Shown here in pieces: positions 15,997 through 42,925 of a DNA stretch of 64,000 bases (its first letter is position 1; each line of letters starts with the position of its first letter). The notes under the pieces are model-generated. The model saw nothing but the letters and a program-made list of their open reading frames with translations. It did no database searches and was not told the DNA's origin. A program made the translations under genes and the position numbers. Origin of the DNA: a virus; IMG/VR virus record IMGVR_UViG_3300045988_112440; one strand, written 5' to 3'.

Positions 15997-16152
15997 ATGT
16001 GGATTATGATAATATCGTTTATTGCATTTTACTTTGTACTGCTTGTTCCTTTTGGGATTTTTGTAATGGGACTACTGAAAGTGGCGTCTATTGCTGATGA
16101 TCAGAGTGAGCGGCTGGAAATGGAACAGGGAAGGGATGGTCAAAATGTATGA
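15997..16152 (+). CDS. small membrane protein (51 aa)
   Basis: GAGG RBS; MWIMIISFIAFYFVLLVPFGIFVMGLL TM segment. Confidence 0.4.
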   Translation: MWIMIISFIAFYFVLLVPFGIFVMGLLKVASIADDQSERLEMEQGRDGQNV

Positions 16153-16339
16153 TTTGAAATCGTGCCCATGTTGTGGTGGTCCAGCAACGCTTTTTAAATT
16201 GAGAGCGCAAGTCATATGTGATTATTGTGGACTGAGAACAAAAGCGTATTATGATAATCTTGTTAATTGTGGAATGCCAGATAATAATATGCTTTTGGAT
16301 GCAGTAAATGCTTGGAATAAACGAGTTGATAAAAGTTAA
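16145..16339 (+). CDS. Lar-family restriction-alleviation-like zinc-ribbon protein
   Basis: LKSCPCCGG..CDYCG plus C-terminal AVNAWNKR, the hallmark of the Lar family. Confidence 0.65.
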   Translation: MYDLKSCPCCGGPATLFKLRAQVICDYCGLRTKAYYDNLVNCGMPDNNMLLDAVNAWNKRVDKS

Positions 16340-16357
16340 GATTTAGGAGGAATGAAT

Positions 16358-16522
16358 ATGAACAGATATGATCTTTCCGCTTATGCGATTGCAGTGTCAA
16401 ACTTTTTGAAAGATAATGCTTCTGCTGGCAATGAACGATTTCCAATTACGGTCAATGAATGGGAACTCGCAGCGCAACTGGATAAGCTGGCAAAAGAACT
16501 GCGTGTCCCAGATAAAAACTGA
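16358..16522 (+). CDS. hypothetical small protein (54 aa)
   Basis: AGGAGG RBS 7 nt upstream. Confidence 0.45.
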   Translation: MNRYDLSAYAIAVSNFLKDNASAGNERFPITVNEWELAAQLDKLAKELRVPDKN

Positions 16523-16541
16523 GTTTTAATGGAGATACATT

Positions 16542-16739
16542 ATGAAAAAGTTCGTTGTTCTTTTTGAAGGTTGGAATGATAAGCACGACCGTGAATGTAT
16601 GTGCTATGTTGTTGATGCAGATGATGGCTTTGAAAGTATTTTGAGCGTTGAAGAACGGGCGGAAAAGATGGCTCGAAGCAAACATCCTAATCTGAAAAAT
16701 TTTAAGACGCTTTACATCAAAGAACTGCTTAACAGATAA
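16542..16739 (+). CDS. hypothetical protein
   Basis: GGAGA RBS plus ATG. Confidence 0.55.
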   Translation: MKKFVVLFEGWNDKHDRECMCYVVDADDGFESILSVEERAEKMARSKHPNLKNFKTLYIKELLNR

Positions 16740-16765
16740 GAACTAAGATTTAGGAGGAAATAGTT

Positions 16766-17542
16766 ATGCCGAGAAGGAAAACAGTAGAAGCACTGCAATT
16801 AACGCCGAAAGAAATAGCTCGTAAGTCGCCTACTTTTATGGAGCTTCCTGAGATGGTAAGCCGTGCTGGTGAGCCTACATACTATTATGATGTGGGAGAT
16901 GCTGTAGAGATTGGTCATCTTAGCGGATGCAAGATTGATGAAGTCTGCGACGGTGGTTTATATTACGGTGTTTCTTACGATGATGGATATAGGTACGAAA
17001 CGTGGTTTAACATTCGTAAAGCAGGTATTGAGAAGAAATCTCAACTGACAGAGAATGATGACATTAAGATTTCCTACTCAAATGTGACCATCGAATCCTT
17101 GCTCCACAGGTATTACTTCTTTGGCATCAACTGCAATCCGAGTTATCAACGTGGATCTGTGTGGACAGATGATGACCGTAAACTGCTTCTTGAAACAATT
17201 TTTATGGGTGGTGAAATTGGTCGATTCGTTTTAAAAAATATTGATATGGACGAATGGAATGAAAATCAGAATTACCTTTATGAAATCATTGATGGAAAGC
17301 AGAGGCTTCTGACGCTGACTGCATTCTACGAAGATCGTTTCCGTTACAAAGGATATCTGTATAGTGAACTCTCTAAAAAGGACAAGAGAACATTTGATGA
17401 GGCCGTTGTTGCTATTGCAGATTTGCGGAATCTTTCTAAGAAAGATATGTTGCGTGTATTCTTGTTACTGAATCGTGGCGGCAAGGTTGTTACCAACGAC
17501 GTACTTAATCATGCAAAAGAGTTACTAGATGAAATGGAGTGA
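16766..17542 (+). CDS. DUF262 (ParB/GmrSD N-terminal-like) domain protein
   Basis: YQRGSVW..LLETIFMGGEIGRFVL..EIIDGKQRLLTL matches the DUF262 signature; has an extra ~100-aa N-terminal domain and no DUF1524/HNH part. Confidence 0.7.
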   Translation: MPRRKTVEALQLTPKEIARKSPTFMELPEMVSRAGEPTYYYDVGDAVEIGHLSGCKIDEVCDGGLYYGVSYDDGYRYETWFNIRKAGIEKKSQLTENDDIKISYSNVTIESLLHRYYFFGINCNPSYQRGSVWTDDDRKLLLETIFMGGEIGRFVLKNIDMDEWNENQNYLYEIIDGKQRLLTLTAFYEDRFRYKGYLYSELSKKDKRTFDEAVVAIADLRNLSKKDMLRVFLLLNRGGKVVTNDVLNHAKELLDEME

Positions 17543-17546
17543 GTAA

Positions 17547-17882
17547 ATGATTTATACCGTAACAATGATTGACTCGTTTAAGAACGAGCAGAATGCGAAA
17601 TTCAGTTCGCCAGTGTCAAATACCAAAGGAATCTATTGGATGCCGGATGATAGTTGGATCGCTGGATTCTTTACAGATTTGGCAGAGGCTATTCGAGTTG
17701 TTAAAGAAAACGTGACTGACATCTTTGAACATTGTTACAACTACGCAGTCGTTGAAGGATACGAGGAAGGTCTGTATCCAAGACCAGAATTGACGAGGTG
17801 GTTTAAATATGATGCTGAGAGTGACACAGCATTCGAGATTGAACCGCCGTTGCATAATAAGGTGGCCGGATATGCGTTTTGA
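17547..17882 (+). CDS. hypothetical protein
   Basis: GGAGTGAG RBS. Confidence 0.6.
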   Translation: MIYTVTMIDSFKNEQNAKFSSPVSNTKGIYWMPDDSWIAGFFTDLAEAIRVVKENVTDIFEHCYNYAVVEGYEEGLYPRPELTRWFKYDAESDTAFEIEPPLHNKVAGYAF

Positions 17883-17899
17883 AGAAGGAGAATAAGACT

Positions 17900-18055
17900 A
17901 TGAGTAGTGTACTTATTGATCGGAACGCAGCTAAGAAGGTAGAATCCATCTTCGAGCATCCTGATAAGGTCTATTCGGTGTATTTGAAAGCTGGCGGAGA
18001 TGTCGTTTGGCTGCAAGGTGAAATTGAGTTGTATGAATTTTTGCGTAGCTTGTAA
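17900..18055 (+). CDS. hypothetical small protein (51 aa)
   Basis: AAGGAG RBS. Confidence 0.45.
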   Translation: MSSVLIDRNAAKKVESIFEHPDKVYSVYLKAGGDVVWLQGEIELYEFLRSL

Positions 18056-18081
18056 AACTAAGTTTTAATATAGGTGATTTT

Positions 18082-18834
18082 ATGACAAGAAATGAATTGC
18101 TTGGAGCATTATGCTTTCCAGAATATAATTTTCTTCGGGAGAATGAGCATCTTGGCAAGCATATGATGTTCGTAACGGTCGGTGGCAGTCATGCTTATGG
18201 AACAAATGTTGAGGGTTCAGATCTCGACATCCGAGGGGTGGCATTAAATTCAAGAGAAGACCTTCTTGGTCTTGGTGAGTTTGAACATTATGTGGATACT
18301 CAAACTGATACTACAATCTACAGCTTTAATAAGGCTGTGAAGCTAATGTGCAGTGGAAATCCTAATATGCTGGAGCAGCTAGGGAACGCCGATGAACTCG
18401 TTATTAGCTATAATCCAATGACAAAGTTACTTATGGATAATAAAAAGCTGTTCCTGTCGAGGCGTGTAATCTATTCGTTTGGCGGTTTTGCAGGTAAGCT
18501 GATTCAGAAGGCTGATACGCTGGACAAAGATCCAATTTATCATGGCTCAAAGAAAATGCACAAGACGGTAATGAATGTAGTTCGTGTATACCTGATGCTC
18601 TTTGACATCTTAGAAAAAGGTGAAATTAAAACCTATCGAGACAACGATCATAACTTCCTGACGCAGCTTCGCAACGGTGAATATGATTACAAAGAGATTC
18701 GTCAGCAACTGATTCCGGCCTATGAAAGCAGATTGTCAGTGGACAAGAGTGAGACTTACCTGCCGGACAATGTTGATTGGAAGCGGGTCAACGAGCTTGT
18801 GATGACTGTAAATGAGGAGTCTTTAAAGATTTGA
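18082..18834 (+). CDS. Pol-beta-superfamily nucleotidyltransferase, RlaP-like
   Basis: VGGSHAYGTNVEGSDLDIRGV is the GS..(D/E)xD NTase signature in its RlaP-type context. Confidence 0.7.
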   Translation: MTRNELLGALCFPEYNFLRENEHLGKHMMFVTVGGSHAYGTNVEGSDLDIRGVALNSREDLLGLGEFEHYVDTQTDTTIYSFNKAVKLMCSGNPNMLEQLGNADELVISYNPMTKLLMDNKKLFLSRRVIYSFGGFAGKLIQKADTLDKDPIYHGSKKMHKTVMNVVRVYLMLFDILEKGEIKTYRDNDHNFLTQLRNGEYDYKEIRQQLIPAYESRLSVDKSETYLPDNVDWKRVNELVMTVNEESLKI

Positions 18835-18861
18835 TAAAACCAATATTTTAGGAGTGATATT

Positions 18862-19041
18862 ATGAAAACTTTTGATGTTTTAAAAGTTGGACAGACTATT
18901 GTAGCCGAAGACGGGGACACAATGAAAGTTATTGATTATGATTTTTATGGGACAGGGCAGAATATCATGTGCTTTATGTCGGATCGTTGTGTATATCCAT
19001 CAACTGAGTTTAATGCAGGCGATTGGGAGATTGAAAGTTGA
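18862..19041 (+). CDS. hypothetical small protein (59 aa)
   Basis: AGGAGTG RBS. Confidence 0.45.
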   Translation: MKTFDVLKVGQTIVAEDGDTMKVIDYDFYGTGQNIMCFMSDRCVYPSTEFNAGDWEIES

Positions 19042-19068
19042 AAGGAGGTTTTATTTATCACTAATAAG

Positions 19069-19683
19069 TTGTTAACAAATCGTGAGCAAAGCGTTGCTAT
19101 TGTGTGTATAATGTGCCTGCTGGCAGGGAATTTAGTAATAAAAGCGTTACCGAATACTGAAGTTGGAGGCACATATACATATTATAATGATCAATCGGTT
19201 CATAATGTTACACAGGCAACAAAAGAAGATGAGAACGATGAACCTACAATTTTTGTAAAGAAAATCGTTGAAACGAAGGTGGTGAACTTTAGCCAGGGTA
19301 AACATGAACTCACTGATGATGAGCGTGCTCTTGCAGAGCAGATTGTTGCTTGTGAAGCAGGTGCTGACAGTTTGGAAGGCCAGATGGCCGTTGCTCAATG
19401 TCTTTATGATTCCGCTGTACTTGATGATTTAACCATCCAGCAGGTCTTTAAGAAGTATGGTTATAGTTCCTTATATAATAGGAAGGTTACAGCAGAGAAT
19501 GAGCTGGCTGTCTCTATGGTGTTTGATTATGGTGCTAAAATTTCAGACAAACCTATCCAATGGTTTGTAACCCCGACTGCAGCTCCCGGCAGTTGGCACG
19601 AGCGTGGAGCAACCTTTGCTGGACAATTTGGCGCACATAGGTTCTATTATGATTCGAAGTTGGTTGTGGATGATGCTGAGTGA
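19069..19683 (+). CDS. SleB/CwlJ-type cell-wall hydrolase with N-terminal TM anchor
   Basis: LAEQIVACEAGADSLEGQMAVAQCL ... GAHRFYY. The start is uncertain (TTG 19069; the frame is open from 19042). Confidence 0.7.
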   Translation: MLTNREQSVAIVCIMCLLAGNLVIKALPNTEVGGTYTYYNDQSVHNVTQATKEDENDEPTIFVKKIVETKVVNFSQGKHELTDDERALAEQIVACEAGADSLEGQMAVAQCLYDSAVLDDLTIQQVFKKYGYSSLYNRKVTAENELAVSMVFDYGAKISDKPIQWFVTPTAAPGSWHERGATFAGQFGAHRFYYDSKLVVDDAE

Positions 19684-19736
19684 ATGGCGTCATCTAAAAT
19701 TTTGATAAATAATACAACAAAAAGATGTGTAATATA

Positions 19737-19764
19737 TTGACTAAAACAAAAGGCTGTGTATAAT
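19737..19764 (+). promoter_or_regulatory. sigma70-like promoter (TTGACT-16-TATAAT)
   Basis: Lies in the intergenic gap after the hydrolase gene. Confidence 0.5.
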
Positions 19765-19808
19765 ATATCTTGAAAGTTGTTTGTGTGAGCGGAAGGCGGT
19801 TATTCTTG

Positions 19809-20135
19809 ATGAGCGATAGAAAGGTTTTGAAAGTTATACGGGTTGATGATTTTTTAAAGTACATAAGAAAAAAGCGAGTGTGGGTCTGCTTTGTTTGTAA
19901 TGGTGTGGATATTCACATGATCTGCAAAAAGATTGACGACATTGGCGTAGAGACGGGTGGGATTGTTAATGGCGTGGGGTTCTTCGGAAATGAGAGTCAC
20001 ATCGAGTTGCGACAAAAATGCCATGAAGTAAGGAGAATTGAACTTAGGTCTGGCTGTGCAGAGAAAGCGTATGAGATGATCTTCGATAATACTAGTGTGT
20101 TCGTATCAGAGAATCCTGAGTTGTACGGGCACTAA
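19809..20135 (+). CDS. hypothetical protein
   Basis: ATG 19809 has a weak RBS; the track ORF starts at TTG 19770. Confidence 0.45.
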   Translation: MSDRKVLKVIRVDDFLKYIRKKRVWVCFVCNGVDIHMICKKIDDIGVETGGIVNGVGFFGNESHIELRQKCHEVRRIELRSGCAEKAYEMIFDNTSVFVSENPELYGH

Positions 20136-20154
20136 AAATATTTTCAAAAACCTC

Positions 20155-20183
20155 TTGACTTCTGTGATTGTATCCTGTATAAT
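20155..20183 (+). promoter_or_regulatory. consensus sigma70 promoter (TTGACT-17-TATAAT)
   Basis: Exact hexamers. The spacer and -10 region overlap an inverted copy of the 21-nt element. An 8-bp leader hairpin sits at 20182-20206. Confidence 0.7.
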
Positions 20184-20190
20184 GTAGCTA
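20170..20190 (-). promoter_or_regulatory. 21-nt conserved element, inverted copy
   Basis: + strand GTATCCTGTATAATGTAGCTA is the reverse complement of TAGCTACATTATACAGGATAC. Confidence 0.7.
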
Positions 20191-20226
20191 TGGAACGGAG
20201 CTACATCATTGTAGAGGAGAATGACT

Positions 20227-20646
20227 ATGGATAACAATATTGACCCAAAGGTCGGAGAGGTTTGGTTGGTTGATCTATCCAATGCGACAGGTCATCAGCA
20301 GCGCGGCATTCGACCGTTCGTTGTGACAAGTAACAACAAGCGTAACTTCTTCAGCCCAACAATCAAAGGGAATCCGTTATCTTCAAGAATATATAAGCGT
20401 TCTCCGGTTCATGTTCTACTCTCAAAGGAAGACTGCGAGTTCCTAGAGGTTGATAGTATCGTTCTCTGCGAAGAGACTGATACACTTAACAAAGGACAGT
20501 TCATCAAGAAACTTGGTGTCTTGTCGGAGCGTCAGATGAATATGATTGCAATGGCAAGATGCAAAGATGAACCATTTTTGCTCGCAGCATTTCTGAGCGG
20601 TGTACAACATACTATGGAATTTCAGAATTTTGCCGCATTTGCTTGA
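20227..20646 (+). CDS. mazF: MazF/PemK-family endoribonuclease toxin-like protein
   Basis: VGEVWLVDLSNATGHQQRGIRPFVVTSNN...SPVHVLL fits the PemK signature; GAGGAG RBS 7 nt before ATG 20227. Confidence 0.75.
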   Translation: MDNNIDPKVGEVWLVDLSNATGHQQRGIRPFVVTSNNKRNFFSPTIKGNPLSSRIYKRSPVHVLLSKEDCEFLEVDSIVLCEETDTLNKGQFIKKLGVLSERQMNMIAMARCKDEPFLLAAFLSGVQHTMEFQNFAAFA

Positions 20647-20697
20647 TTTGTTCTCAGGTTTAATGGTACACTACATAATAAGAAGGAGTGTGCCACT

Positions 20698-21624
20698 ATG
20701 CTTACTGAAGAAAAAATCAAATCTTTTGCCGAAAAGTATTCTGATAGAAGCGGTGAGTTTGTTATATCGACGCTTAACCATGTTATGGATTACGAGGCCG
20801 AGCGTGGATATGAGTTGTTTGACTTCACAAAAGATGATTTTGTAAGGATGTTTGCTAAATACAATTGGGTGAACTCAAGTCGGTCGTTCAGAAATGTAAA
20901 GTCGATAATTACAGGGTACATCAAAAGTGATGATCGAGCGAGTATGTATGACTTAGCTGAATTCTCGGAGAGCGATGTGAGTTCAGACAATATGTACGAG
21001 GACAAGTATTTTGCATCAGTTGATGAGTTTGTTGATTTCTTGGACAAGTATGAAGAACCATATCAGATTCGTATGAACGTGATTGCCGTACTGTACTGGA
21101 TTGGACTTACTTCTGAAGAGGTTTCTAATCTGACAATCAACAATGTTGATTTTGAATCATGTACTGTTCTGAATAGGACCGGTGTTGACGCAAGACTGAT
21201 GAATATCATTAAGCAGTGTTATGAAATGAAACAATACGATGCTCCAAATATGGGAGGATACAGAACGTTTTATGTCATAAATGGTGATTACATCCTTCGC
21301 AAAACAGAGGATAGAACTGGTGCAGACAGTGATTCAAGAATGTCTACAAACACAATTCATAGTTATTTCACGCGCTTGAATGATATTCTCGAAAGAAGAT
21401 ATCATTCAAAGGCTTTAGACCGAAGACATCTGACTAGAAACGGCGAGTATGTCAAGGTTTATAACTACTGTAAAACTCATCCAGAATTTAATCTTGCAGA
21501 ACTTAGTTTCGGAAATGGTAAAGATCCTCTTGCGGACATTATCGGAAGAAAGTGCAGCAAGGTTGCCTACATTAGTTTCCGGCAAGGATACAAGGGCTGG
21601 ATCGAATACTTCCACAAAAATTAA
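20698..21624 (+). CDS. tyrosine-recombinase-like protein lacking the catalytic Arg (MrpR/YopR-like repressor candidate)
   Basis: SAM-like N-terminal domain. Has YWIGLTSEEVSNLTINNVDF where recombinases have G.R.SE; no clear HxxR..Y. Confidence 0.5.
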   Translation: MLTEEKIKSFAEKYSDRSGEFVISTLNHVMDYEAERGYELFDFTKDDFVRMFAKYNWVNSSRSFRNVKSIITGYIKSDDRASMYDLAEFSESDVSSDNMYEDKYFASVDEFVDFLDKYEEPYQIRMNVIAVLYWIGLTSEEVSNLTINNVDFESCTVLNRTGVDARLMNIIKQCYEMKQYDAPNMGGYRTFYVINGDYILRKTEDRTGADSDSRMSTNTIHSYFTRLNDILERRYHSKALDRRHLTRNGEYVKVYNYCKTHPEFNLAELSFGNGKDPLADIIGRKCSKVAYISFRQGYKGWIEYFHKN

Positions 21625-21627
21625 AAA

Positions 21628-21652
21628 CAGGGGGCTTCGGCCCCTTGATTTT
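21628..21652 (+). terminator. intrinsic terminator
   Basis: 8-bp stem CAGGGGGC-TTCG-GCCCCTTG followed by ATTTT. Confidence 0.75.
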
Positions 21653-21659
21653 AACATTG

Positions 21660-21680
21660 TAACTATATAACACAGGATAC
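21660..21680 (+). promoter_or_regulatory. 21-nt conserved element, forward copy
   Basis: TAACTATATAACACAGGATAC, with 21 nt between it and the Pnkp ATG. Confidence 0.7.
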
Positions 21681-21701
21681 TTATTAGAAAGGGAAATGTA
21701 G

Positions 21702-23915
21702 ATGAGAACGCTTTTGCTGTTCCGTGGAGCACCAGGTTGTGGGAAGTCCACCTATATTAAAGAGCATAATCTTGAACAGTACGTATTGAGTGCTGATACA
21801 CTTCGCCTTATGTGCCAGAGCGCACAGGAAACACCTGCCGGGCAGATGGAGATTTCTCCGCAGAATGATGATGTTGTATGGGAGATGCTTTTCAAACTGC
21901 TTGAGGTGCGTATGAGTCATGGCGAGTTTACCGTGATTGATGCAACGAATTCCAAGACGGTCGAAATGAATCGTTATAAGAATCTGGCAAAACAGTATCG
22001 TTATCGGATGTATGTTATTGACATGACTGACCTTCCGATTGAGGAATGCAAACGAAGAAACGCTCAGAGAGAATGGCTGAAGCGAGTTCCTGAAGCGGCC
22101 ATTGATAAGATGTACGCTCGGTTTGCTACTCAAAAAGTTCCTTCTGGCGTGACAGTTCTTCCTTCTACTACAGATGTGATGTCCGATTTGAATTACTGTC
22201 CGAATGACTTCAACCAGTGGAAGAAGATCCATGTCATCGGTGATGTTCATGGCTGTTATACTTGTTTAAGTGAATACCTTGGCGAGATGAAGGACGACGA
22301 ACTTTATATTTTCGTTGGTGATTATCTCAATCGTGGCATCGAAAACGTTGAGGTATTCAAGTTCTTGTGTGATGTTGTAAATAACAACCGCAAGAATGTG
22401 ATCCTTTTGGAAGGGAATCACGAGCGTTGGCTGAACAAGTGGGGGCATGATGAACCGGTTCAGAGTGAAGAGTTTGCAAACTACACTCGTCCGCAGCTTT
22501 TTAAAGCTGGTATTGATAAGAACACTGCTCGTAAGATCTATTCCAGAGTCGGCCAGTGTGCCTACTTTGAGTATGATGGTAAGCGGTATTTCGTGAGCCA
22601 CGGTGGTTTGAGTTATCTGCCTTATTTTCTTCCTTTCGTATCTGCTGACCAGATGATCAAAGGTGTAGGTCGCTATCCTGATATGCTAACCGTGGCTGAG
22701 TCTTGGGAAAAATCGATGCCTGATAGCTATATTCAGATATTCGGTCATCGAAATGTGCAGGATGTTCCTATTGATATGGGGCATCGGTGCTACAACCTCG
22801 AAGGAAAAATCGAGTTTGGTGGATATCTCCGTTGCGTGGAACTTGAACACGGTCAGCCCGTCAAGTGTGTAGAAACCAAGAATGATGTATTCCGAAAAGA
22901 GGAACCAAAGACCGAATCTGCCGTTGAAATGAAAACTGAGTTCGATAACGCAGAACTTGTTAGTAAGATGCGTCAAAGCAAATATGTGTTTGAGAAGCGA
23001 TTCGGAGATATTTCTTCTTTCAACTTCTCTCGTGAAGCATTTTATAAGAAGCATTGGGATGAGGTTTCTACCAAAGCAAGGGGATTGTTCATTAACACAA
23101 AGACGAATAAGATTGTAGCTCGAAGCTATGATAAGTTCTTTGCGGTTGATGAGCGGAATGAAACGAGAATTGGAAACCTACAGAACACTTTGAAGTTCCC
23201 GGTGACTGCGTATCTAAAAGAGAACGGATTTCTTGGTATCATTTCGTATGATGCAGAACAGGATGGCCTGTTCATTGCAAGTAAATCCACTCCTGAAGGG
23301 CCTTTTGCAGATATGTTCCGAAAGATTCTCATGGATACGACTTCTGATGAAGATCGTAAGAATCTGAAAGAAGTTGCAAAAGAGAATGGCTCCATCATCT
23401 TCGAGGTGATTGATCCTGTGAATGATGCTCATATCATTGAATACAAGAAACCACACATTGTTTTGCTGGATATTATTGCGAATGATATGAACTTCAGTGT
23501 GATGGATTACGATGATCTGAAGCGTGTTGCTGAAAAGTGTCATTTGCAGATTAAGGAGAAGGTTAAGACTTTTGAGAACTGGAGTAAATTTTATCCTTGG
23601 TACGAGGAAGTCATGAACGAGAACTATCTGCATCATGGCTTTGAACACGTTGAAGGCTTTGTTTTGCGAGACAGCAACAATTTTATGTTTAAGATGAAGC
23701 TTCCTTATTATAAGCACTGGAAGTTCTTGCGTGGTGTCATGCAGAGTGTCCAGAAGCGTGGTTATTACGAAAACACTGCCAAGCTATTTACTGCTGAGGA
23801 TAACCTGTTCTATGGTTGGATGCGTGAGCAACGAGAGAAAGACCAGGAGTCTTTTTGCAAGAAGGGTATTATTCAGCTGCGGAATGAGTTCTACGCAAGT
23901 CAGCAGAAGAGCTGA
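21702..23915 (+). CDS. pnkp: trifunctional polynucleotide kinase-phosphatase-ligase (bacterial Pnkp-type RNA repair enzyme)
   Basis: N-terminal P-loop GAPGCGKS; central metallophosphoesterase GDVHGC/GDYLNRG/EGNHE; C-terminal adenylyltransferase with the KENGF lysine motif (near 23216). Confidence 0.85.
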   Translation: MRTLLLFRGAPGCGKSTYIKEHNLEQYVLSADTLRLMCQSAQETPAGQMEISPQNDDVVWEMLFKLLEVRMSHGEFTVIDATNSKTVEMNRYKNLAKQYRYRMYVIDMTDLPIEECKRRNAQREWLKRVPEAAIDKMYARFATQKVPSGVTVLPSTTDVMSDLNYCPNDFNQWKKIHVIGDVHGCYTCLSEYLGEMKDDELYIFVGDYLNRGIENVEVFKFLCDVVNNNRKNVILLEGNHERWLNKWGHDEPVQSEEFANYTRPQLFKAGIDKNTARKIYSRVGQCAYFEYDGKRYFVSHGGLSYLPYFLPFVSADQMIKGVGRYPDMLTVAESWEKSMPDSYIQIFGHRNVQDVPIDMGHRCYNLEGKIEFGGYLRCVELEHGQPVKCVETKNDVFRKEEPKTESAVEMKTEFDNAELVSKMRQSKYVFEKRFGDISSFNFSREAFYKKHWDEVSTKARGLFINTKTNKIVARSYDKFFAVDERNETRIGNLQNTLKFPVTAYLKENGFLGIISYDAEQDGLFIASKSTPEGPFADMFRKILMDTTSDEDRKNLKEVAKENGSIIFEVIDPVNDAHIIEYKKPHIVLLDIIANDMNFSVMDYDDLKRVAEKCHLQIKEKVKTFENWSKFYPWYEEVMNENYLHHGFEHVEGFVLRDSNNFMFKMKLPYYKHWKFLRGVMQSVQKRGYYENTAKLFTAEDNLFYGWMREQREKDQESFCKKGIIQLRNEFYASQQKS

Positions 23916-23922
23916 ATTAAAA

Positions 23923-23952
23923 TAGACATTTTATCGTGATTTTCGTTAGAAT
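23923..23952 (+). promoter_or_regulatory. promoter candidate for the tRNA array (TAGACA-18-TAGAAT)
   Basis: Hexamers seen by eye; overlaps the DR-IR-DR structure at 23932-23972. Confidence 0.35.
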
Positions 23953-24030: not shown

Positions 24031-24115
24031 GGGGATATGGTGAAATTGGCAGCCACGCTTGATTCAAACTCAAGTGTCGAAAGACGTATCGGTTCAAATC
24101 CGATTATCCCTACCA
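24031..24115 (+). tRNA. tRNA-Leu(CAA), type II, CCA encoded
   Basis: Acceptor GGGGATA/TATCCCT; anticodon loop TTCAAAC; long variable arm GTCGAAAGAC; T arm ATCGG-TTCAAAT-CCGAT. Confidence 0.9.
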
Positions 24116-24312
24116 TGAAGATCAGTTGTTCTGGCTAGATCGGGGATTGGCCGTTCATTGGCAAACGACAGGTATCATACCGGTAAAGGATGCCGAGCCA
24201 AATAGGAAGGGGAATAAGGTGCAAGCCGAGTAGCTGTCGGACGAATACCCTTCAGGTAGCCAGTAAACCGGAATGTAAAACAAATGTTGGCTGTTTCTGA
24301 TCTTCTATATAA
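24116..24312 (+). ncRNA. structured inter-tRNA spacer, candidate ncRNA (class unknown)
   Basis: Nested helices 24117-24125/24297-24305 (9 bp), 24126-24130/24279-24283, 24131-24137/24257-24263 (7 bp) and 24166-24171/24234-24239 (6 bp). Confidence 0.4.
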
Positions 24313-24395
24313 GCTACCGTGGTGGAATGGCAGACACCGGAGACTTAAAATCTCCTGTCGGAAACGACGTGCCCGTTCAAGTCGGGTCGGTAGCA
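24313..24395 (+). tRNA. tRNA-Leu(TAA), type II
   Basis: Acceptor GCTACCG/CGGTAGC; anticodon loop CTTAAAA; long variable arm; no encoded CCA. Confidence 0.9.
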
Positions 24396-24402
24396 TTGAT
24401 AT

Positions 24403-24478
24403 CCGGGTGTAGCTCAGTTGGAAGAGCGCGTGCTTTGGGAGCATGAGGCCGCAGGATCGTGACCTGTCACTCGGACCA
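24403..24478 (+). tRNA. tRNA-Pro(TGG), CCA encoded, atypical T-loop
   Basis: Acceptor CCGGGTG/CACTCGG; anticodon loop TTTGGGA; T-loop is ATCGTGA instead of TTCRANN. Confidence 0.8.
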
Positions 24479-24507
24479 ACCCGAAAGGGCATGTAGAATT
24501 TTTCATT

Positions 24508-24566
24508 CACATTATTCCCAGCTCTCTGGAAACGGAGCAGTGTGACGTAGTAAGCTGGGCATATGC
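24508..24566 (+). ncRNA. tRNA-leader hairpin module, copy A
   Basis: CACATTATT then CCCAGCT(24517-24523)...AGCTGGG(24553-24559). It ends 7 nt before tRNA-Gln. Confidence 0.45.
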
Positions 24567-24637
24567 TGCGCCATCGCCAAGCGGTAAGGCAGAGGACTTT
24601 GACTCCTCCATCACAGGTTCGACCCCTGTTGGCGCAA
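24567..24637 (+). tRNA. tRNA-Gln(TTG)
   Basis: Acceptor TGCGCCA/TGGCGCA; anticodon loop CTTTGAC; T arm ACAGG-TTCGACC-CCTGT. Confidence 0.85.
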
Positions 24638-24642
24638 TTTAT

Positions 24643-24724
24643 GCGGATATGGTGGAATGGCAGACACGCCAGACTTAGGATCTGGTGCTTCGGCGTGTGG
24701 GTTCGATGCCCACTATCCGCACCA
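24643..24724 (+). tRNA. tRNA-Leu(TAG), type II, CCA encoded
   Basis: Acceptor GCGGATA/TATCCGC; anticodon loop CTTAGGA; long variable arm. Confidence 0.9.
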
Positions 24725-24770
24725 CGATCATAGAATGGTTGCGTACCGTTTGTTGATCTCCTTTGACTGC

Positions 24771-24830
24771 CACTATTATTCCCAGCTCACCAGTGATGGT
24801 GCAGTAGTGCTTTGTAAGCTGGGTGATTAT
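24771..24830 (+). ncRNA. tRNA-leader hairpin module, copy B
   Basis: CACTATTATT then CCCAGCT(24781-24787)...AGCTGGG(24817-24823), with inner hairpin CACCA-GTGA-TGGTG. It ends 7 nt before tRNA-Gly. Confidence 0.45.
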
Positions 24831-24905
24831 GCAGCGGTCGTACAATGGTTAGTATATCAGCCTTCCAAGCTGAGGATGAGGTTTCGACTACCTTTCGCTG
24901 CTCCA
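24831..24905 (+). tRNA. tRNA-Gly(TCC), CCA encoded
   Basis: Acceptor GCAGCGG/TCGCTGC; anticodon loop CTTCCAA; T loop TTCGACT. Confidence 0.85.
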
Positions 24906-24996
24906 ATCTCGTATGGGTAGGATTTTTAGCGGTCAAATCCGGCTGCGCCTGTGCGAGATACCACCCCGAAAGGGGAGAGATATAGGAAATGTGCAT

Positions 24997-25092
24997 CACT
25001 GTTATTCCTTCCTCGTCTATATGATATAGATGCAATAGTGTTTATAAGGAAGGTTCCCAGTTGAATAGTTGCAGCTGTTTGACTGGGAATAT
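24997..25092 (+). ncRNA. tRNA-leader hairpin module, copy C (two stacked hairpins)
   Basis: CACTGTTATTCC, then CCTTCCT(25007-13)/AGGAAGG(25047-53), then TTCCCAGT(25054-61)/ACTGGGAA(25082-89). It ends 3 nt before tRNA-Met. Confidence 0.4.
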
Positions 25093-25169
25093 GGGATAGT
25101 AGCTCAGTTGGTCAGAGCTGGCGGCTCATAACCGCTTGGTCGCGAGTTCAAATCTTGCCTGTCCCACCA
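25093..25169 (+). tRNA. tRNA-Met(CAT) elongator type (or Ile2 if lysidine-modified), CCA encoded
   Basis: Acceptor GGGATAG/CTGTCCC; anticodon loop CTCATAA; T loop TTCAAAT; pair 1-72 is G-C, so it is not an initiator. Confidence 0.85.
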
Positions 25170-25263: not shown

Positions 25264-25284
25264 TAGCTATGTAACACAGGATAC
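25264..25284 (+). promoter_or_regulatory. 21-nt conserved element, forward copy
   Basis: TAGCTATGTAACACAGGATAC, with 17 nt between it and the MTase GTG. Confidence 0.7.
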
Positions 25285-28858: not shown

Positions 28859-28879
28859 TAACTAAGTGACACAGGATAC
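28859..28879 (+). promoter_or_regulatory. 21-nt conserved element, forward copy
   Basis: TAACTAAGTGACACAGGATAC, with 36 nt between it and ATG 28916. Confidence 0.65.
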
Positions 28880-35982: not shown

Positions 35983-36744
35983 ATGGTTTACATTACAGGC
36001 GATATTCATGGTGATTTTAATCGTTTTTTAGAATTGGAAAAGTTTTGCCATGAACACAATCTTGGAAAGAATGACTGGATTGTCTGCCTTGGCGATGTCG
36101 GTTTGAACTATTACGGCAAGGACGACCCTCGCGAATGGAGTATTAAGACTATCGCCGCAGATATTCCTGCAAATCTGTTTTGTATTTATGGCAACCACGA
36201 ACGCCGCCCTTCTCGTAAGGATGGTTATAGGACAAAGGAAATCAGTGGAGATATTTGCGGCAAAGTGTGGCATGACCCACATTATCCCAATCAGTATTTC
36301 GCTATCGATGGCGAAGTTTACCAGATTCTTGCTGATAGGAAAATTCTGAACTGTCTTGTTTGTGGCGGAGCTTATTCCGTAGATAAATGTTATCGGTTGG
36401 AGCGTGGATGGAACTGGTGGCCGGATGAACAGCCTAATGAGAAGACTAAGAAAAAGATCTGGAATATTACACATGACCCTCAAATCGATGGTATTGATGT
36501 TATGCTCACGCATACTTGTCCATTCCGGTTCATTCCAACTGAATTGTTTATCGGTGGTATTGATCAAAGCACAGTAGACCAGTCAACTGAAATATTCTTT
36601 GATAATATATACGAATGTTATCCTAACGATTGTAAACCATTCTGGTACTTCGGCCATTTCCATGGTAACAAGTACACCGATGACTATGTGATGCTTTTCG
36701 ACGATATTATTAAGTTTGGAGATAAGGTGAAGAGTGATGGTTAA
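35983..36744 (+). CDS. calcineurin-like metallophosphoesterase
   Basis: GDIHGD, GDVGLNY and GNHE motifs. Confidence 0.75.
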   Translation: MVYITGDIHGDFNRFLELEKFCHEHNLGKNDWIVCLGDVGLNYYGKDDPREWSIKTIAADIPANLFCIYGNHERRPSRKDGYRTKEISGDICGKVWHDPHYPNQYFAIDGEVYQILADRKILNCLVCGGAYSVDKCYRLERGWNWWPDEQPNEKTKKKIWNITHDPQIDGIDVMLTHTCPFRFIPTELFIGGIDQSTVDQSTEIFFDNIYECYPNDCKPFWYFGHFHGNKYTDDYVMLFDDIIKFGDKVKSDG

Positions 36745-42835: not shown

Positions 42836-42856
42836 TAACTATATAATACAGGATAC
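42836..42856 (+). promoter_or_regulatory. 21-nt conserved element, forward copy
   Basis: TAACTATATAATACAGGATAC. Confidence 0.7.
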
Positions 42857-42904: not shown

Positions 42905-42925
42905 TAACTATATAATACAGGATAC
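42905..42925 (+). promoter_or_regulatory. 21-nt conserved element, forward copy
   Basis: TAACTATATAATACAGGATAC, with 13 nt between it and the ligase ATG. Confidence 0.7.

What the first reader, a model, noticed from the sequence alone, without database searches (positions are those of the whole stretch)
18082..23915. Phage-borne RNA-repair kit: trifunctional Pnkp without Hen1, an RlaP-like nucleotidyltransferase and the tRNA array
21702-23915 combines a P-loop kinase, a metallophosphoesterase (GDVHGC/GNHE) and a ligase-type adenylyltransferase (KENGF). That is the domain order of the bacterial Pnkp known from Clostridium thermocellum, where it works with the Hen1 methyltransferase. No Hen1-like gene is adjacent here. 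The gene is followed directly by the tRNA array. It is preceded within 3 kb by a Pol-beta-type NTase with the RlaP signature; RlaP genes are known as neighbours of RNA-ligase repair operons. By analogy with T4 Pnk/Rnl1 countering PrrC, this looks like a counter-defence module that heals cleaved tRNAs. Using the bacterial-type single-polypeptide Pnkp would be a different solution from the T4 two-enzyme one.
Basis: partly seen in the sequence, partly recalled or inferred. Interest (0 to 1): 0.7.

Follow-up and report, generated by a model that had tools for sequence, protein, structure and literature searches.

The report
Phage single-protein RNA break repair enzyme
A large gut phage encodes one protein that should heal and re-join cut RNA such as tRNA; it belongs to a family already present, though untested, in more than a hundred sequenced phages, so it is an ordinary find with a few interesting details.

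Summary
ORF 21702-23915 (737 aa) has three domains: a P-loop polynucleotide kinase, a binuclear metallophosphoesterase and an ATP-dependent RNA ligase. All catalytic residues are invariant in 68 homologues. An RlaP nucleotidyltransferase gene lies 2.9 kb upstream, and seven tRNA genes start 116 nt downstream.

The kinase and phosphatase resemble Clostridium thermocellum Pnkp. The ligase does not: it is Rnl1-superfamily (PF09511) and closest in sequence and fold to fungal Trl1 ligase, not the Hen1-dependent Pnkp type. The missing Hen1 is therefore expected.

The protein matches PHROG 8238 end to end. Homologues occur in 140 sequenced phages (Staphylococcus phage Twort and relatives, SPbeta-like Bacillus phages, Lactobacillus, Brochothrix), 481 IMG/VR contigs and 265 bacterial genomes.

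The "kit" is loose:
- RlaP sits in a hypervariable cargo hotspot and is present in 27 of 79 near-identical phages and 6 of 80 distant loci.
- The tRNA array is a feature of this lineage.
- The constant neighbours are a MazF-like RNase and a repressor-like protein.

The most likely function is autonomous repair of 2',3'-cyclic-phosphate/5'-OH RNA breaks during infection. I found no biochemical study of this fusion.

The parts
21702..23915 (+). Gene for the 737-aa trifunctional RNA repair enzyme (kinase, phosphoesterase, ligase)
   Evidence: phrog_8238 end to end, 2.9e-226. AlphaFold2 model has mean pLDDT 90.3.
21702..22151 (+). Kinase module (residues 1-150): P-loop GAPGCGKST, general base D32, R119 and R123
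   Evidence: AAA_33 2.2e-23. Foldseek matches C. thermocellum Pnk 4gp7/4jt2 with TM 0.73-0.74. G14, K15, D32 and R123 are invariant and R119 is >=90% conserved in 68 sequences.
22221..22901 (+). Binuclear metallophosphoesterase module (residues about 174-400): D181, H183, D207, R211, N239, H240, H300, H349
   Evidence: Metallophos 5.4e-15. Foldseek matches lambda phosphatase 1g5b (TM 0.72) and the CthPnkp phosphatase 4j6o (TM 0.66). The listed residues are invariant. This copy has a private D210N change, codon AAT at 22329-22331.
22944..23912 (+). ATP-dependent RNA ligase module (residues 415-737): K506 (motif I, KENG), E568, E651/G652, K664/K666, and a roughly 70-aa helical C-domain
   Evidence: RNA_lig_T4_1 7.7e-41. 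PDB sequence search hits only Trl1-LIG (2.2e-18) and T4 Rnl1. Foldseek gives Trl1-LIG TM 0.66-0.69 against T4 Rnl1 0.55. The isolated C-domain has Trl1-LIG 9qw7 as best hit (TM 0.60, E 1.3).
18082..18834 (+). RlaP-family Pol-beta nucleotidyltransferase; optional accessory gene in a variable cargo hotspot
   Evidence: PF10127 3.8e-19, phrog_388 2e-43. The GS...DLD motif can be read in the sequence. Present in 27 of 79 close relatives.
24031..25169 (+). Array of seven tRNA genes (Leu-CAA, Leu-UAA, Pro-UGG, Gln-UUG, Leu-UAG, Gly-UCC, Met-CAU)
   Evidence: ARAGORN and Rfam RF00005 at 47.7-65.7 bits. Present downstream in 78 of 79 close relatives.
21629..21645 (+). G+C-rich hairpin followed by a T-run between the upstream gene and the repair gene (terminator-like)
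21660..21680 (+). Lineage-specific promoter-like or 5'-UTR motif TAACTATATAACACAGGATAC, also found upstream of replication genes
   Evidence: Six matches against 1.36 expected, alignment. Kept upstream of the gene in 63 of 79 close relatives.
23923..23952 (+). Sigma-70-like promoter match (TAGACA, 18 nt, TAGAAT) ahead of the tRNA array
   Evidence: This is a consensus match only.
20221..20646 (+). MazF/PemK-like endoribonuclease. It is a constant neighbour of the repair gene; whether it belongs to the system is unproven
   Evidence: PemK_toxin 1.7e-19. S. aureus MazF 3.5e-14. Present in 79 of 79 close relatives.
20698..21624 (+). Protein with a weak match to the MrpR N-terminal domain, always next to the MazF-like gene. 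It is a constant neighbour of the repair gene, probably a regulator
   Evidence: PF22822 5.4e-4, below the cut-off. The homologue in L004 carries the same family at E<=1e-5. Present in 79 of 79 close relatives. No PDB sequence match.

Best explanation
The gene encodes a self-sufficient RNA heal-and-seal enzyme. Its substrate should be RNA cut by metal-independent ribonucleases (anticodon nucleases, HEPN or MazF-type enzymes), which leave a 2',3'-cyclic phosphate and a 5'-OH.

Proposed steps:
1. The N-terminal P-loop kinase phosphorylates the 5'-OH.
2. The central Mn/Ni-type binuclear phosphoesterase opens and removes the cyclic phosphate to give a 2',3'-diol.
3. The C-terminal ligase adenylylates itself on K506, transfers AMP to the 5'-phosphate and seals the break.

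The healing modules are of the C. thermocellum Pnkp type. The sealing module is an Rnl1-superfamily ligase with a Trl1-like C-domain, so no Hen1 partner is needed.

The gene has its own promoter-like motif, shared with the phage's replication genes, and is therefore probably expressed during lytic growth. Its most likely role is to undo RNA (chiefly tRNA) cleavage inflicted during infection. The neighbouring tRNA array may offer replacement rather than repair. The RlaP enzyme, where present, may restore nucleotides trimmed from the 3' end before ligation.

Shown here: domain identity, intact catalytic residues, fold, distribution and gene neighbourhoods. Inferred: all enzymatic activities, the substrate, the timing of expression and the counter-defence role.
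For: Domain assignment. Fold: a model with pLDDT 90.3 matches CthPnk, lambda and CthPnkp phosphatases, and Trl1-LIG/T4 Rnl1. Catalytic residues of all three modules are invariant in 68 homologues at about 50% identity. These include counterparts of T4 Rnl1 R54, K75, K99, E159, E227/G228 and K240/K242 (residue list from PMC6379707). Wild-type CthPnkp healing followed by T4 Rnl1 sealing repairs broken tRNA in vitro (PMC1920235), so this pairing of module types is known to work. The histidine whose H189D change redirects CthPnkp to a 2'-phosphate product is His in all 170 family members read (GD[IVL]H). The gene is kept in 79 of 80 closely related phage contigs fetched and occurs in 140 isolated phages across several Firmicute genera, including phage Twort. 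RlaP adds one or two nucleotides to damaged RNA 3' ends (PMC12776372). It overlaps the 3' end of this gene in a 213-kb phage-like contig that also encodes Thg1 and lies 0.8 kb upstream in L092. The promoter-like motif is shared with the methylase, AAA_24 and DNA ligase genes.
Against: No activity, substrate or expression has been measured for any family member that I could find. The ligase keeps a His and two invariant basic residues where Trl1 binds the 2'-phosphate, so the end chemistry it accepts is uncertain. RlaP and tRNA arrays accompany the gene in only a minority of distant loci (6 of 80 and about 5 of 80). Many homologues sit among ordinary cellular genes in Lachnospiraceae chromosomes, so the family is not purely a phage counter-defence tool. 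The host and its nucleases are unknown. This copy has a private D210N change in the phosphatase motif, which is benign in CthPnkp.
Confidence: 0.7

Rival explanations
1. It is an orphan bacterial Pnkp of the C. thermocellum type whose ligase needs a Hen1 partner, so without Hen1 it only heals ends.
For: The domain order is the same. The kinase and phosphatase are closest to CthPnkp structures. TIGR04075 gives a partial match.
Against: TIGR04075 scores 76 bits against a cut-off of 750 and covers no ligase positions. The ligase domain matches PF09511 at 7.7e-41. At E<=10 it hits only Trl1 and T4 Rnl1 in the PDB. No Pnkp ligase or Hen1 complex is among the 50 best Foldseek hits.
Confidence: 0.03
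2. The enzyme works with the phage's own MazF-like RNase. MazF cuts selected RNAs as part of the lysis-lysogeny or host-takeover programme, and the enzyme re-joins them or protects phage and host RNAs from collateral cuts. On this reading it is a cut-and-reseal switch rather than counter-defence.
For: MazF-like and repressor-like genes lie immediately upstream in 79 of 79 close relatives and in phages only about 53% identical in the repair enzyme. MazF-type cuts leave exactly the ends this enzyme should accept (established knowledge of MazF chemistry). SPbeta-family phages are known to involve host MazF in the arbitrium decision (PMC10769878).
Against: A hairpin and a separate promoter-like motif lie between the MazF pair and the repair gene. 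Only 4 of 80 distant loci have a MazF-like gene within 10 kb. The phage records whose neighbourhoods I examined (Goe11, Twort, KKP_3916) have the enzyme with no MazF-like gene within 6 kb. The adjacency could simply be inherited gene order within one phage family.
Confidence: 0.12
3. It is a host-derived general RNA housekeeping gene carried as a passenger, with no specific role in infection.
For: 265 hits in bacterial genomes, mostly Lachnospiraceae and other Clostridia. Many have cellular neighbours such as ABC transporters, RsmB/F and GGDEF/EAL proteins.
Against: The gene is retained with intact catalytic residues in 79 of 80 genomes of this phage lineage, next to a region where nearly everything else varies. 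It occurs in phages of several genera, including Staphylococcus phage Twort. It shares its upstream motif with replication genes.
Confidence: 0.1
4. The ligase works like fungal Trl1. It needs a 2'-phosphate at the 3' end, the phosphoesterase acts only as a cyclic phosphodiesterase, and a host Tpt1/KptA removes the junction 2'-phosphate.
For: The ligase is closest to Trl1-LIG in sequence and fold, including the C-domain. H577 (equivalent to Trl1 His227) is invariant. K674 (at the Arg337 position) and R677 are also invariant.
Against: The Arg334 position is Lys here and Asn in most of the family. The metal-site His whose change to Asp makes CthPnkp leave a 2'-phosphate is always His. No KptA homologue occurs in the window or in 171 loci (the query was validated). 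Among phage genera, only Bacillus appears in both the KptA-bearing and the repair-gene-bearing lists.
Confidence: 0.05

Closest known systems
Bacteriophage T4 Pnkp plus Rnl1 (tRNA-Lys repair against PrrC)
   Same: The same three chemical steps, the same predicted end products (5'-phosphate and 2',3'-diol), a phage origin, and a ligase adenylyltransferase domain of the same superfamily (PF09511; T4 Rnl1 hit at 5.8e-7).
   Different: T4 uses two proteins. Its phosphatase is a DxDxT acylphosphatase (PMC3592404 abstract), not a binuclear metallophosphoesterase. The T4 Rnl1 C-domain, which gives tRNA specificity, is not matched: alignments stop at residue 670.
Clostridium thermocellum Pnkp-Hen1 bacterial RNA repair system
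   Same: The domain order kinase, metallophosphoesterase, ligase in one polypeptide. The kinase and phosphatase folds are the closest solved structures together with lambda phosphatase.
   Different: The ligase module belongs to a different clade (Rnl4 in Pnkp, per PMC6379707; Rnl1/Trl1-like here). There is no Hen1 and no 2'-O-methylation step. TIGR04075 is far below its cut-off.
Fungal tRNA ligase Trl1 (Rnl6 clade)
   Same: A trifunctional heal-and-seal enzyme. Its ligase domain is the best sequence and structure match, including the short helical C-domain. The His next to motif III is conserved.
   Different: The domain order is reversed (LIG-KIN-CPD). Trl1 uses a cyclic phosphodiesterase domain that leaves a 2'-phosphate. 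The Arg-Arg pair of the 2'-phosphate triad is Lys-Lys here and Asn-Lys in most of the family.
PHROG 8238 and GenBank phage proteins annotated 'RNA ligase', 'tRNA ligase' or 'polynucleotide kinase' (e.g. Twort ORF008, SPbeta-like Goe11 c00950)
   Same: The same family and architecture end to end, at 37-44% identity over 99% of the length.
   Different: None in kind. This copy differs by host lineage (human-gut phage), its neighbours and a private D210N change.
RtcB-RtcA-(RlaP) operons
   Same: RNA repair linked to an RlaP nucleotidyltransferase (PMC12776372).
   Different: RtcB joins 3'-phosphate or cyclic-phosphate ends directly to 5'-OH and needs no kinase or phosphatase. It is an unrelated fold.

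Membership tests
Bacterial Pnkp (TIGR04075; C. thermocellum Pnkp-Hen1 system) | Whole-protein match to the equivalog model at or above its cut-off (750 bits) | tested here: not met
   76 bits; only profile positions 10-323 of 851 align.
Bacterial Pnkp (TIGR04075; C. thermocellum Pnkp-Hen1 system) | N-terminal P-loop 5'-kinase and central binuclear metallophosphoesterase | tested here: met
   Pfam AAA_33 and Metallophos. Foldseek TM 0.73 to 4gp7 and 0.66 to 4j6o. Catalytic residues invariant.
Bacterial Pnkp (TIGR04075; C. thermocellum Pnkp-Hen1 system) | C-terminal Rnl4-type ligase domain | tested here: not met
   No Pnkp ligase chain is hit at E<=10 or among the 50 best Foldseek matches. The domain is PF09511 instead.
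Bacterial Pnkp (TIGR04075; C. thermocellum Pnkp-Hen1 system) | Adjacent Hen1 methyltransferase gene | tested here: not met
   No Hen1-like ORF in the 64-kb window. None was seen among called genes in eight related contigs.
Rnl1 superfamily RNA ligase (Pfam PF09511) | Match above the gathering score, with nucleotidyltransferase motifs I, III, IV and V and the N-terminal sub-domain Arg/Lys/Phe | tested here: met
   140.8 bits against 28.3. R460, K478, F479, K506, N508, G509, E568, G652, K664 and K666 are invariant and E651 is >=90% conserved.
T4 Rnl1 proper | T4-type C-terminal domain that confers tRNA anticodon-loop specificity | tested here: not met
   T4 Rnl1 alignments end at residue 670. 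Foldseek TM 0.55 with rmsd 8-10 A. The isolated C-domain does not recover T4 Rnl1.
Rnl6 clade (fungal Trl1-LIG) | Distinctive short all-helical C-domain appended to the adenylyltransferase domain | tested here: inconclusive
   For: the best full-length Foldseek hits cover 350-370 of 372-395 target residues at TM 0.66-0.69. Sequence alignments run to residue 730 and include a GIIxLRNEF match. The C-domain modelled alone has 9qw7 as top hit at TM 0.60. Against: that hit has E=1.3, and a sequence profile of the C-domain alone finds no Trl1.
Rnl6 clade (fungal Trl1-LIG) | [quoted passage not shown] | tested here: not met
   His is kept (H577, invariant). Arg334 is K671 here and Asn in 68 of 91 more distant members. 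Arg337 is K674, an invariant Lys.
Rnl6 clade (fungal Trl1-LIG) | Requirement for a 3'-OH,2'-phosphate end | not testable with these tools
   Needs ligation assays with RNA carrying 2'-phosphate or 2'-OH ends.
RlaP nucleotidyltransferases (PF10127), for ORF 18082-18834 | Family HMM above its cut-off and an intact Pol-beta GS...DxD motif | tested here: met
   69.8 bits against 23. GGSHAYGTNVEGSDLD can be read in the translation.
RlaP nucleotidyltransferases (PF10127), for ORF 18082-18834 | Conserved genomic linkage to an RNA ligase gene | tested here: inconclusive
   Within 2.9 kb here; overlapping the ligase gene in L011 and 0.8 kb away in L092. However it is present in only 27 of 79 close relatives and 6 of 80 distant loci.
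PHROG 8238 | End-to-end profile match | tested here: met
   2.9e-226; residues 1-735 against profile positions 1-734 of 737.

The most novel reading that the evidence does not exclude
The phage's own MazF-like RNase and the adjacent heal-and-seal enzyme form a programmed cut-and-religate circuit tied to the neighbouring repressor-like gene. On this reading RNA breakage and its reversal are part of the phage's lysis-lysogeny or takeover programme, not merely a response to host defence.
Probability: 0.1. Interest if true: 0.7.

Novelty: new member of a known kind. Interest (0 to 1): 0.35.

Why it matters
tRNA cleavage is now recognised as a common bacterial anti-phage strategy. The only experimentally established phage repair answer I know of is the T4 two-enzyme pathway. 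This family packs all three steps into one protein and is widespread in phages of Gram-positive bacteria, including Staphylococcus phages related to Twort. I found no biochemical study of it.

Characterising one member would show three things: whether repair is a general counter-defence in Firmicute phages, which nucleases it defeats, and whether a Trl1-like ligase can work on 2'-OH ends. For this window the practical result is a corrected annotation: Rnl1/Trl1-type ligase, no Hen1 needed, and a loose rather than obligate association with RlaP and tRNAs.

Tried and rejected
- **Pnkp/Hen1 membership.** Rejected on the TIGR04075 score and on ligase identity.
- **Hen1 elsewhere in the window.** Not found. 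The rest of the roughly 135-kb genome is outside the window and could not be searched.
- **A KptA/Tpt1 partner for a 2'-phosphate pathway.** None in the window or in 171 loci, using a KptA sequence recalled from memory. That query retrieved annotated phage KptA genes, which validates it.
- **Sequence profile of the ligase C-domain alone against the PDB.** Only spurious hits.
- **An antitoxin upstream of the MazF-like gene.** No family match for ORF 19770-20135 or its counterparts. That ORF is replaced by an unrelated minus-strand ORF in 24 close relatives.
- **Solved RlaP and MrpR structures by sequence.** No PDB hits.
- **PADLOC.** Neither the repair enzyme, RlaP nor the MazF-like protein matches a defence-system model; only the GmrSD_N-like cargo gene does.
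- **Megablast of the locus against GenBank phages.** Only tRNA-sized matches, so there is no close isolate.
- **Literature on this fusion.** Nothing found. Burroughs and Aravind 2016, the survey most likely to catalogue it, is not in the library.
- **Host identification.** Failed. No bacterial genome carries a copy above 51% identity.

Full report
**1.

ORF 21702-23915 on the + strand encodes 737 aa. Pfam places three domains in it, each above its gathering score:
- AAA_33 kinase at residues 4-142 (2.2e-23)
- Metallophos at 175-353 (5.4e-15)
- RNA_lig_T4_1 at 458-670 (7.7e-41)

ORF 18082-18834 is an RlaP-family nucleotidyltransferase (PF10127, 3.8e-19) and ends 2.87 kb upstream. Seven tRNA genes occupy 24031-25169.

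The window is a large phage. Genes are almost all on one strand, with DnaB, primase, RecJ, DNA polymerase, Dda helicase, DNA ligase, anaerobic ribonucleotide reductase and integrases. Eighty IMG/VR contigs carry the same gene at 88-99% identity, many of them 125-139 kb long. Relatives carry SPbeta-type genes such as YorF and YorH.

**2. Anatomy**

An AlphaFold2 model built on 68 homologues is confident (mean pLDDT 90.3). The only disordered stretch is the linker at 402-413, before the ligase. Foldseek against the PDB gives:

| Module | Best structural matches | TM (target-normalised) |
|---|---|---|
| Kinase | C. thermocellum polynucleotide kinase 4gp7/4jt2 | 0.73-0.74 |
| Phosphatase | lambda phosphatase 1g5b; CthPnkp phosphatase 4j6o | 0.72; 0.66 |
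| Ligase | fungal Trl1 ligase domains 9qw7, 6n0t, 6n67, 8rbj (350-370 aligned columns) | 0.66-0.69 |
| Ligase | T4 Rnl1 (rmsd 8-10 A) | 0.55 |

Catalytic residues in 68 homologues averaging about 50% identity (invariant unless marked):
- Kinase: G14, K15, D32, R119 (>=90%), R123
- Phosphatase: D181, H183, D207, R211, N239, H240, H300, H349
- Ligase: R460, K478, F479, K506, N508, G509, K528, E568, H577, E651 (>=90%), G652, K664, K666

The ligase residues correspond to the essential residues of T4 Rnl1 and Trl1 listed in PMC6379707.

One oddity: this copy alone has Asn at position 210 of the GDxxDRG motif, while the 168 other family members in which the motif could be read have Asp. The equivalent D236N change in CthPnkp leaves 2',3'-cyclic phosphodiesterase efficiency unchanged or slightly better (PMC2190708). 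I treat it as a tolerated private variant.

**3. The ligase is not the Pnkp/Hen1 kind**

NCBIfam's equivalog for bacterial Pnkp (TIGR04075) scores 76 bits against a cut-off of 750 and aligns only the kinase and phosphatase parts. Searched alone at E<=10, the ligase domain hits only Trl1 ligase (best 2.2e-18) and T4 Rnl1 (5.8e-7) among all PDB sequences. PMC6379707 assigns Pnkp-Hen1 to the Rnl4 clade, T4 Rnl1 to Rnl1 and Trl1-LIG to Rnl6, and defines each clade by its C-terminal appendage.

Here the T4 Rnl1 alignments stop at residue 670, whereas the Trl1 alignments run to about residue 730 and include a GIIxLRNEF match. The roughly 70-residue helical C-domain, modelled alone (pLDDT 93.7), has C. 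glabrata Trl1 ligase as its only plausible PDB hit. That hit has TM 0.60 over 72 columns but E=1.3. A sequence profile of the C-domain alone finds no Trl1. I therefore call the ligase Rnl1-superfamily with a Trl1-like C-domain, and leave Rnl6 membership open.

The His-Arg-Arg triad that enforces Trl1's need for a 2'-phosphate (PMC11404444) is only partly kept:
- H577 is invariant.
- The Arg334 position is Lys here and Asn in most of the family.
- The Arg337 position is an invariant Lys, followed by an invariant R677.

**4. The family is already widespread in databases**

- The protein matches PHROG 8238 ("RNA ligase") end to end at 2.9e-226.
- tblastn finds it in 140 GenBank phage records, 113 of them at 80% coverage or more. 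By organism name: Staphylococcus 95 (Twort among them), Lactobacillus 18, Streptomyces 6, Bacillus 5 (SPbeta-like), Fusobacterium 5, Brochothrix 4, Pseudomonas 3, Mammaliicoccus 2, Alicyclobacillus 1, Silviavirus 1.
- Annotations vary: RNA ligase, tRNA ligase, polynucleotide kinase, Ser/Thr phosphatase or hypothetical protein.
- IMG/VR holds 481 relatives. One-per-species bacterial genomes hold 265, mostly Lachnospiraceae and other Clostridia.
- The ligase domain alone has 638 representative clusters at E<=1e-30. About two-thirds of the best 150 are 680-830 aa proteins with the ligase at the C-terminus; the rest are mostly 310-460 aa proteins that are either stand-alone ligases or fragments.
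- Some genomic copies lie in prophages. Others lie among ordinary cellular genes such as ABC transporters, RsmB/F and GGDEF/EAL proteins.
- I found no paper reporting biochemistry of this fusion. The 2016 Burroughs and Aravind survey, which may catalogue it, is not held.

**5. The "kit" is a loose neighbourhood, not a unit**

Counts of neighbours within the flanks fetched (up to 10 kb each side) of the repair gene:

| Neighbour | 79 close relatives (88-99% identity) | 80 distant genome loci (45-51% identity) |
|---|---|---|
| MazF-like gene | 79 | 4 |
| Repressor-like gene | 79 | 4 |
| tRNA array | 78 (directly downstream) | about 5 (adjacent) |
| RlaP | 27 | 6 |

No gene family accompanies the enzyme in more than 18 of the 91 more distant loci compared.

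The segment at 16.1-19.0 kb, which holds RlaP, is a cargo hotspot. Almost every genome has a different set of small ORFs there.

The RlaP link is still real in some places. In a 213-kb phage-like contig the RlaP gene overlaps the 3' end of the repair gene, with Thg1 nearby. In L092 it lies 0.8 kb upstream.

In the window the elements look separately transcribed:
- A hairpin at 19667-19696 follows the ORF after RlaP.
- A hairpin with a T-run at 21629-21645 precedes the repair gene.
- A sigma-70-like site at 23923-23952 precedes the tRNAs.

Between that second hairpin and the start codon lies the motif TAACTATATAACACAGGATAC. It recurs upstream of the cytosine methylase, AAA_24 and DNA ligase genes (six matches against 1.36 expected by chance). 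It is kept upstream of the repair gene in 63 of 79 close relatives. This suggests co-expression with replication genes, but that is an inference.

**6. Most likely mechanism**

The three steps are kinase phosphorylation of the 5'-OH, removal of the 2',3'-cyclic phosphate by the metallophosphoesterase, and sealing through a K506-AMP intermediate. The pairing of module types is known to work: CthPnkp-healed tRNA halves are sealed by T4 Rnl1 in vitro, whereas the H189D mutant leaves a 2'-phosphate that only yeast Trl1 seals (PMC1920235). All 170 family members read keep His at that position.

No KptA/Tpt1 homologue is present in the window or in 171 loci (query validated). Among phage genera, only Bacillus appears in both the KptA-bearing and the repair-gene-bearing lists. 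I therefore favour a T4-like 2'-OH pathway over a Trl1-like 2'-phosphate pathway.

RlaP adds one or two nucleotides to damaged RNA 3' ends (PMC12776372). It would fit as an optional helper against nucleases that also trim the cut end.

The tRNA array may supply replacements. Its tRNAs read codons that are minor in the phage's own genes: CTA 7%, TTA 10%, TTG 18%, CCA 23%, CAA 30% and GGA 24%. That is not what simple codon matching to the phage would predict, but the host is unknown. All activities, substrates and the counter-defence role remain inferred.

**7. Rival explanations**

| Rival | My confidence | Main point |
|---|---|---|
| Orphan Pnkp/Hen1-type enzyme | 0.03 | Contradicted by section 3 |
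| Cut-and-religate circuit with the phage's own MazF-like RNase | 0.12 | The adjacency is strikingly constant in this lineage, and MazF is involved in SPbeta-family lysogeny decisions. But the link is lineage-limited and interrupted by a terminator-like hairpin |
| Host-derived passenger | 0.10 | Argued against by strict retention beside a hypervariable region and by presence in phages of several genera |
| Trl1-like 2'-phosphate chemistry | 0.05 | See section 6 |

**8. Verdict**

This is a new member of an already catalogued but apparently uncharacterised phage and Firmicute family of single-polypeptide RNA repair enzymes. Its healing half resembles bacterial Pnkp and its sealing half resembles Trl1/Rnl1. 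Interest is moderate to low for this window. The family as a whole deserves one good biochemical and genetic study.

**Limits.** The host is unknown. Only 64 kb of a genome of about 135 kb was searched. The neighbourhood statistics rest on my own profile searches, which may miss divergent RlaP or MazF genes. The literature library is incomplete.

Noticed in passing
window 20221-20646 and 20698-21624; also L004-L009 and L162: A MazF/PemK-like RNase gene is followed directly by a 308-aa gene with a weak MrpR N-terminal-domain match. In that protein, where I would expect the first catalytic Arg of a tyrosine recombinase, the sequence reads GLTSEE. The pair is present in all 79 close relatives and is adjacent in more distant phages and prophages, whatever its position relative to the repair gene. 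The phage may carry its own MazF as part of a repressor module.
   Followed up: partly
window about 16100-19000: This is a hypervariable cargo hotspot. Almost every one of 79 near-identical phage genomes has a different set of small ORFs here. RlaP is present in 27 and the GmrSD_N/NsnA-like gene (16766-17542) in 9.
   Followed up: partly
window 21660-21680, 25264-25284, 28859-28879, 42836-42856, 42905-42925: A motif of about 21 nt, TAACTATATAAYACAGGATAC, lies 20-50 nt upstream of the repair gene and of the C5 methylase, AAA_24 and DNA ligase genes (twice for the ligase), usually just after a hairpin. It looks like a lineage-specific promoter or 5'-UTR element. There are six matches against 1.36 expected by chance.
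   Followed up: partly
window 22329-22331 (codon AAT, residue 210): This copy has a private Asp-to-Asn change in the GDxxDRG phosphoesterase motif. The 168 other family members in which the motif could be read, including 77 near-identical copies, have Asp. The equivalent CthPnkp D236N mutant keeps cyclic phosphodiesterase activity.
   Followed up: yes
window 24031-25169; L126, L154, L157: The phage tRNAs decode codons that are minor in the phage's own genes. The same subset (Leu-CAA, Pro-UGG and Gln-UUG, with Leu-UAG in L154 and L157) recurs next to distant homologues of the repair gene. Most of the tRNAs have U at the wobble position. The gaps of 197 nt and 187 nt inside the array hold no recognised RNA.
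   Followed up: partly
L096, L097, L101, L105, L108, L110, L127, L129, L136, L137, L143, L144, L146, L149, L155, L168: A single tRNA-Pro(CGG) gene lies 0.1-10 kb downstream of the homologue in 16 genomes, mostly assigned to Acetatifactor or other Lachnospiraceae. This may be a shared chromosomal position or a prophage attachment site.
   Followed up: no
L008 655-5771: In a related phage contig, RlaP lies beside NAMPT, a phosphoribosyltransferase-like gene (faint match) and NAD synthase genes, just upstream of the MazF-like, repressor-like and repair-enzyme trio. NAD salvage and RNA repair functions are therefore clustered there.
   Followed up: no
window 35983-36744: A second, separate metallophosphoesterase gene (253 aa) sits inside the replication module. 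It was not examined further.
   Followed up: no
L011 (213-kb contig that a source labels Bacteroidaceae): The gene content (many small unknown ORFs, YAcAr, RlaP, Thg1, adenylosuccinate synthase) looks like a jumbo phage rather than a bacterial chromosome. The taxonomic label of this bin is doubtful.
   Followed up: no
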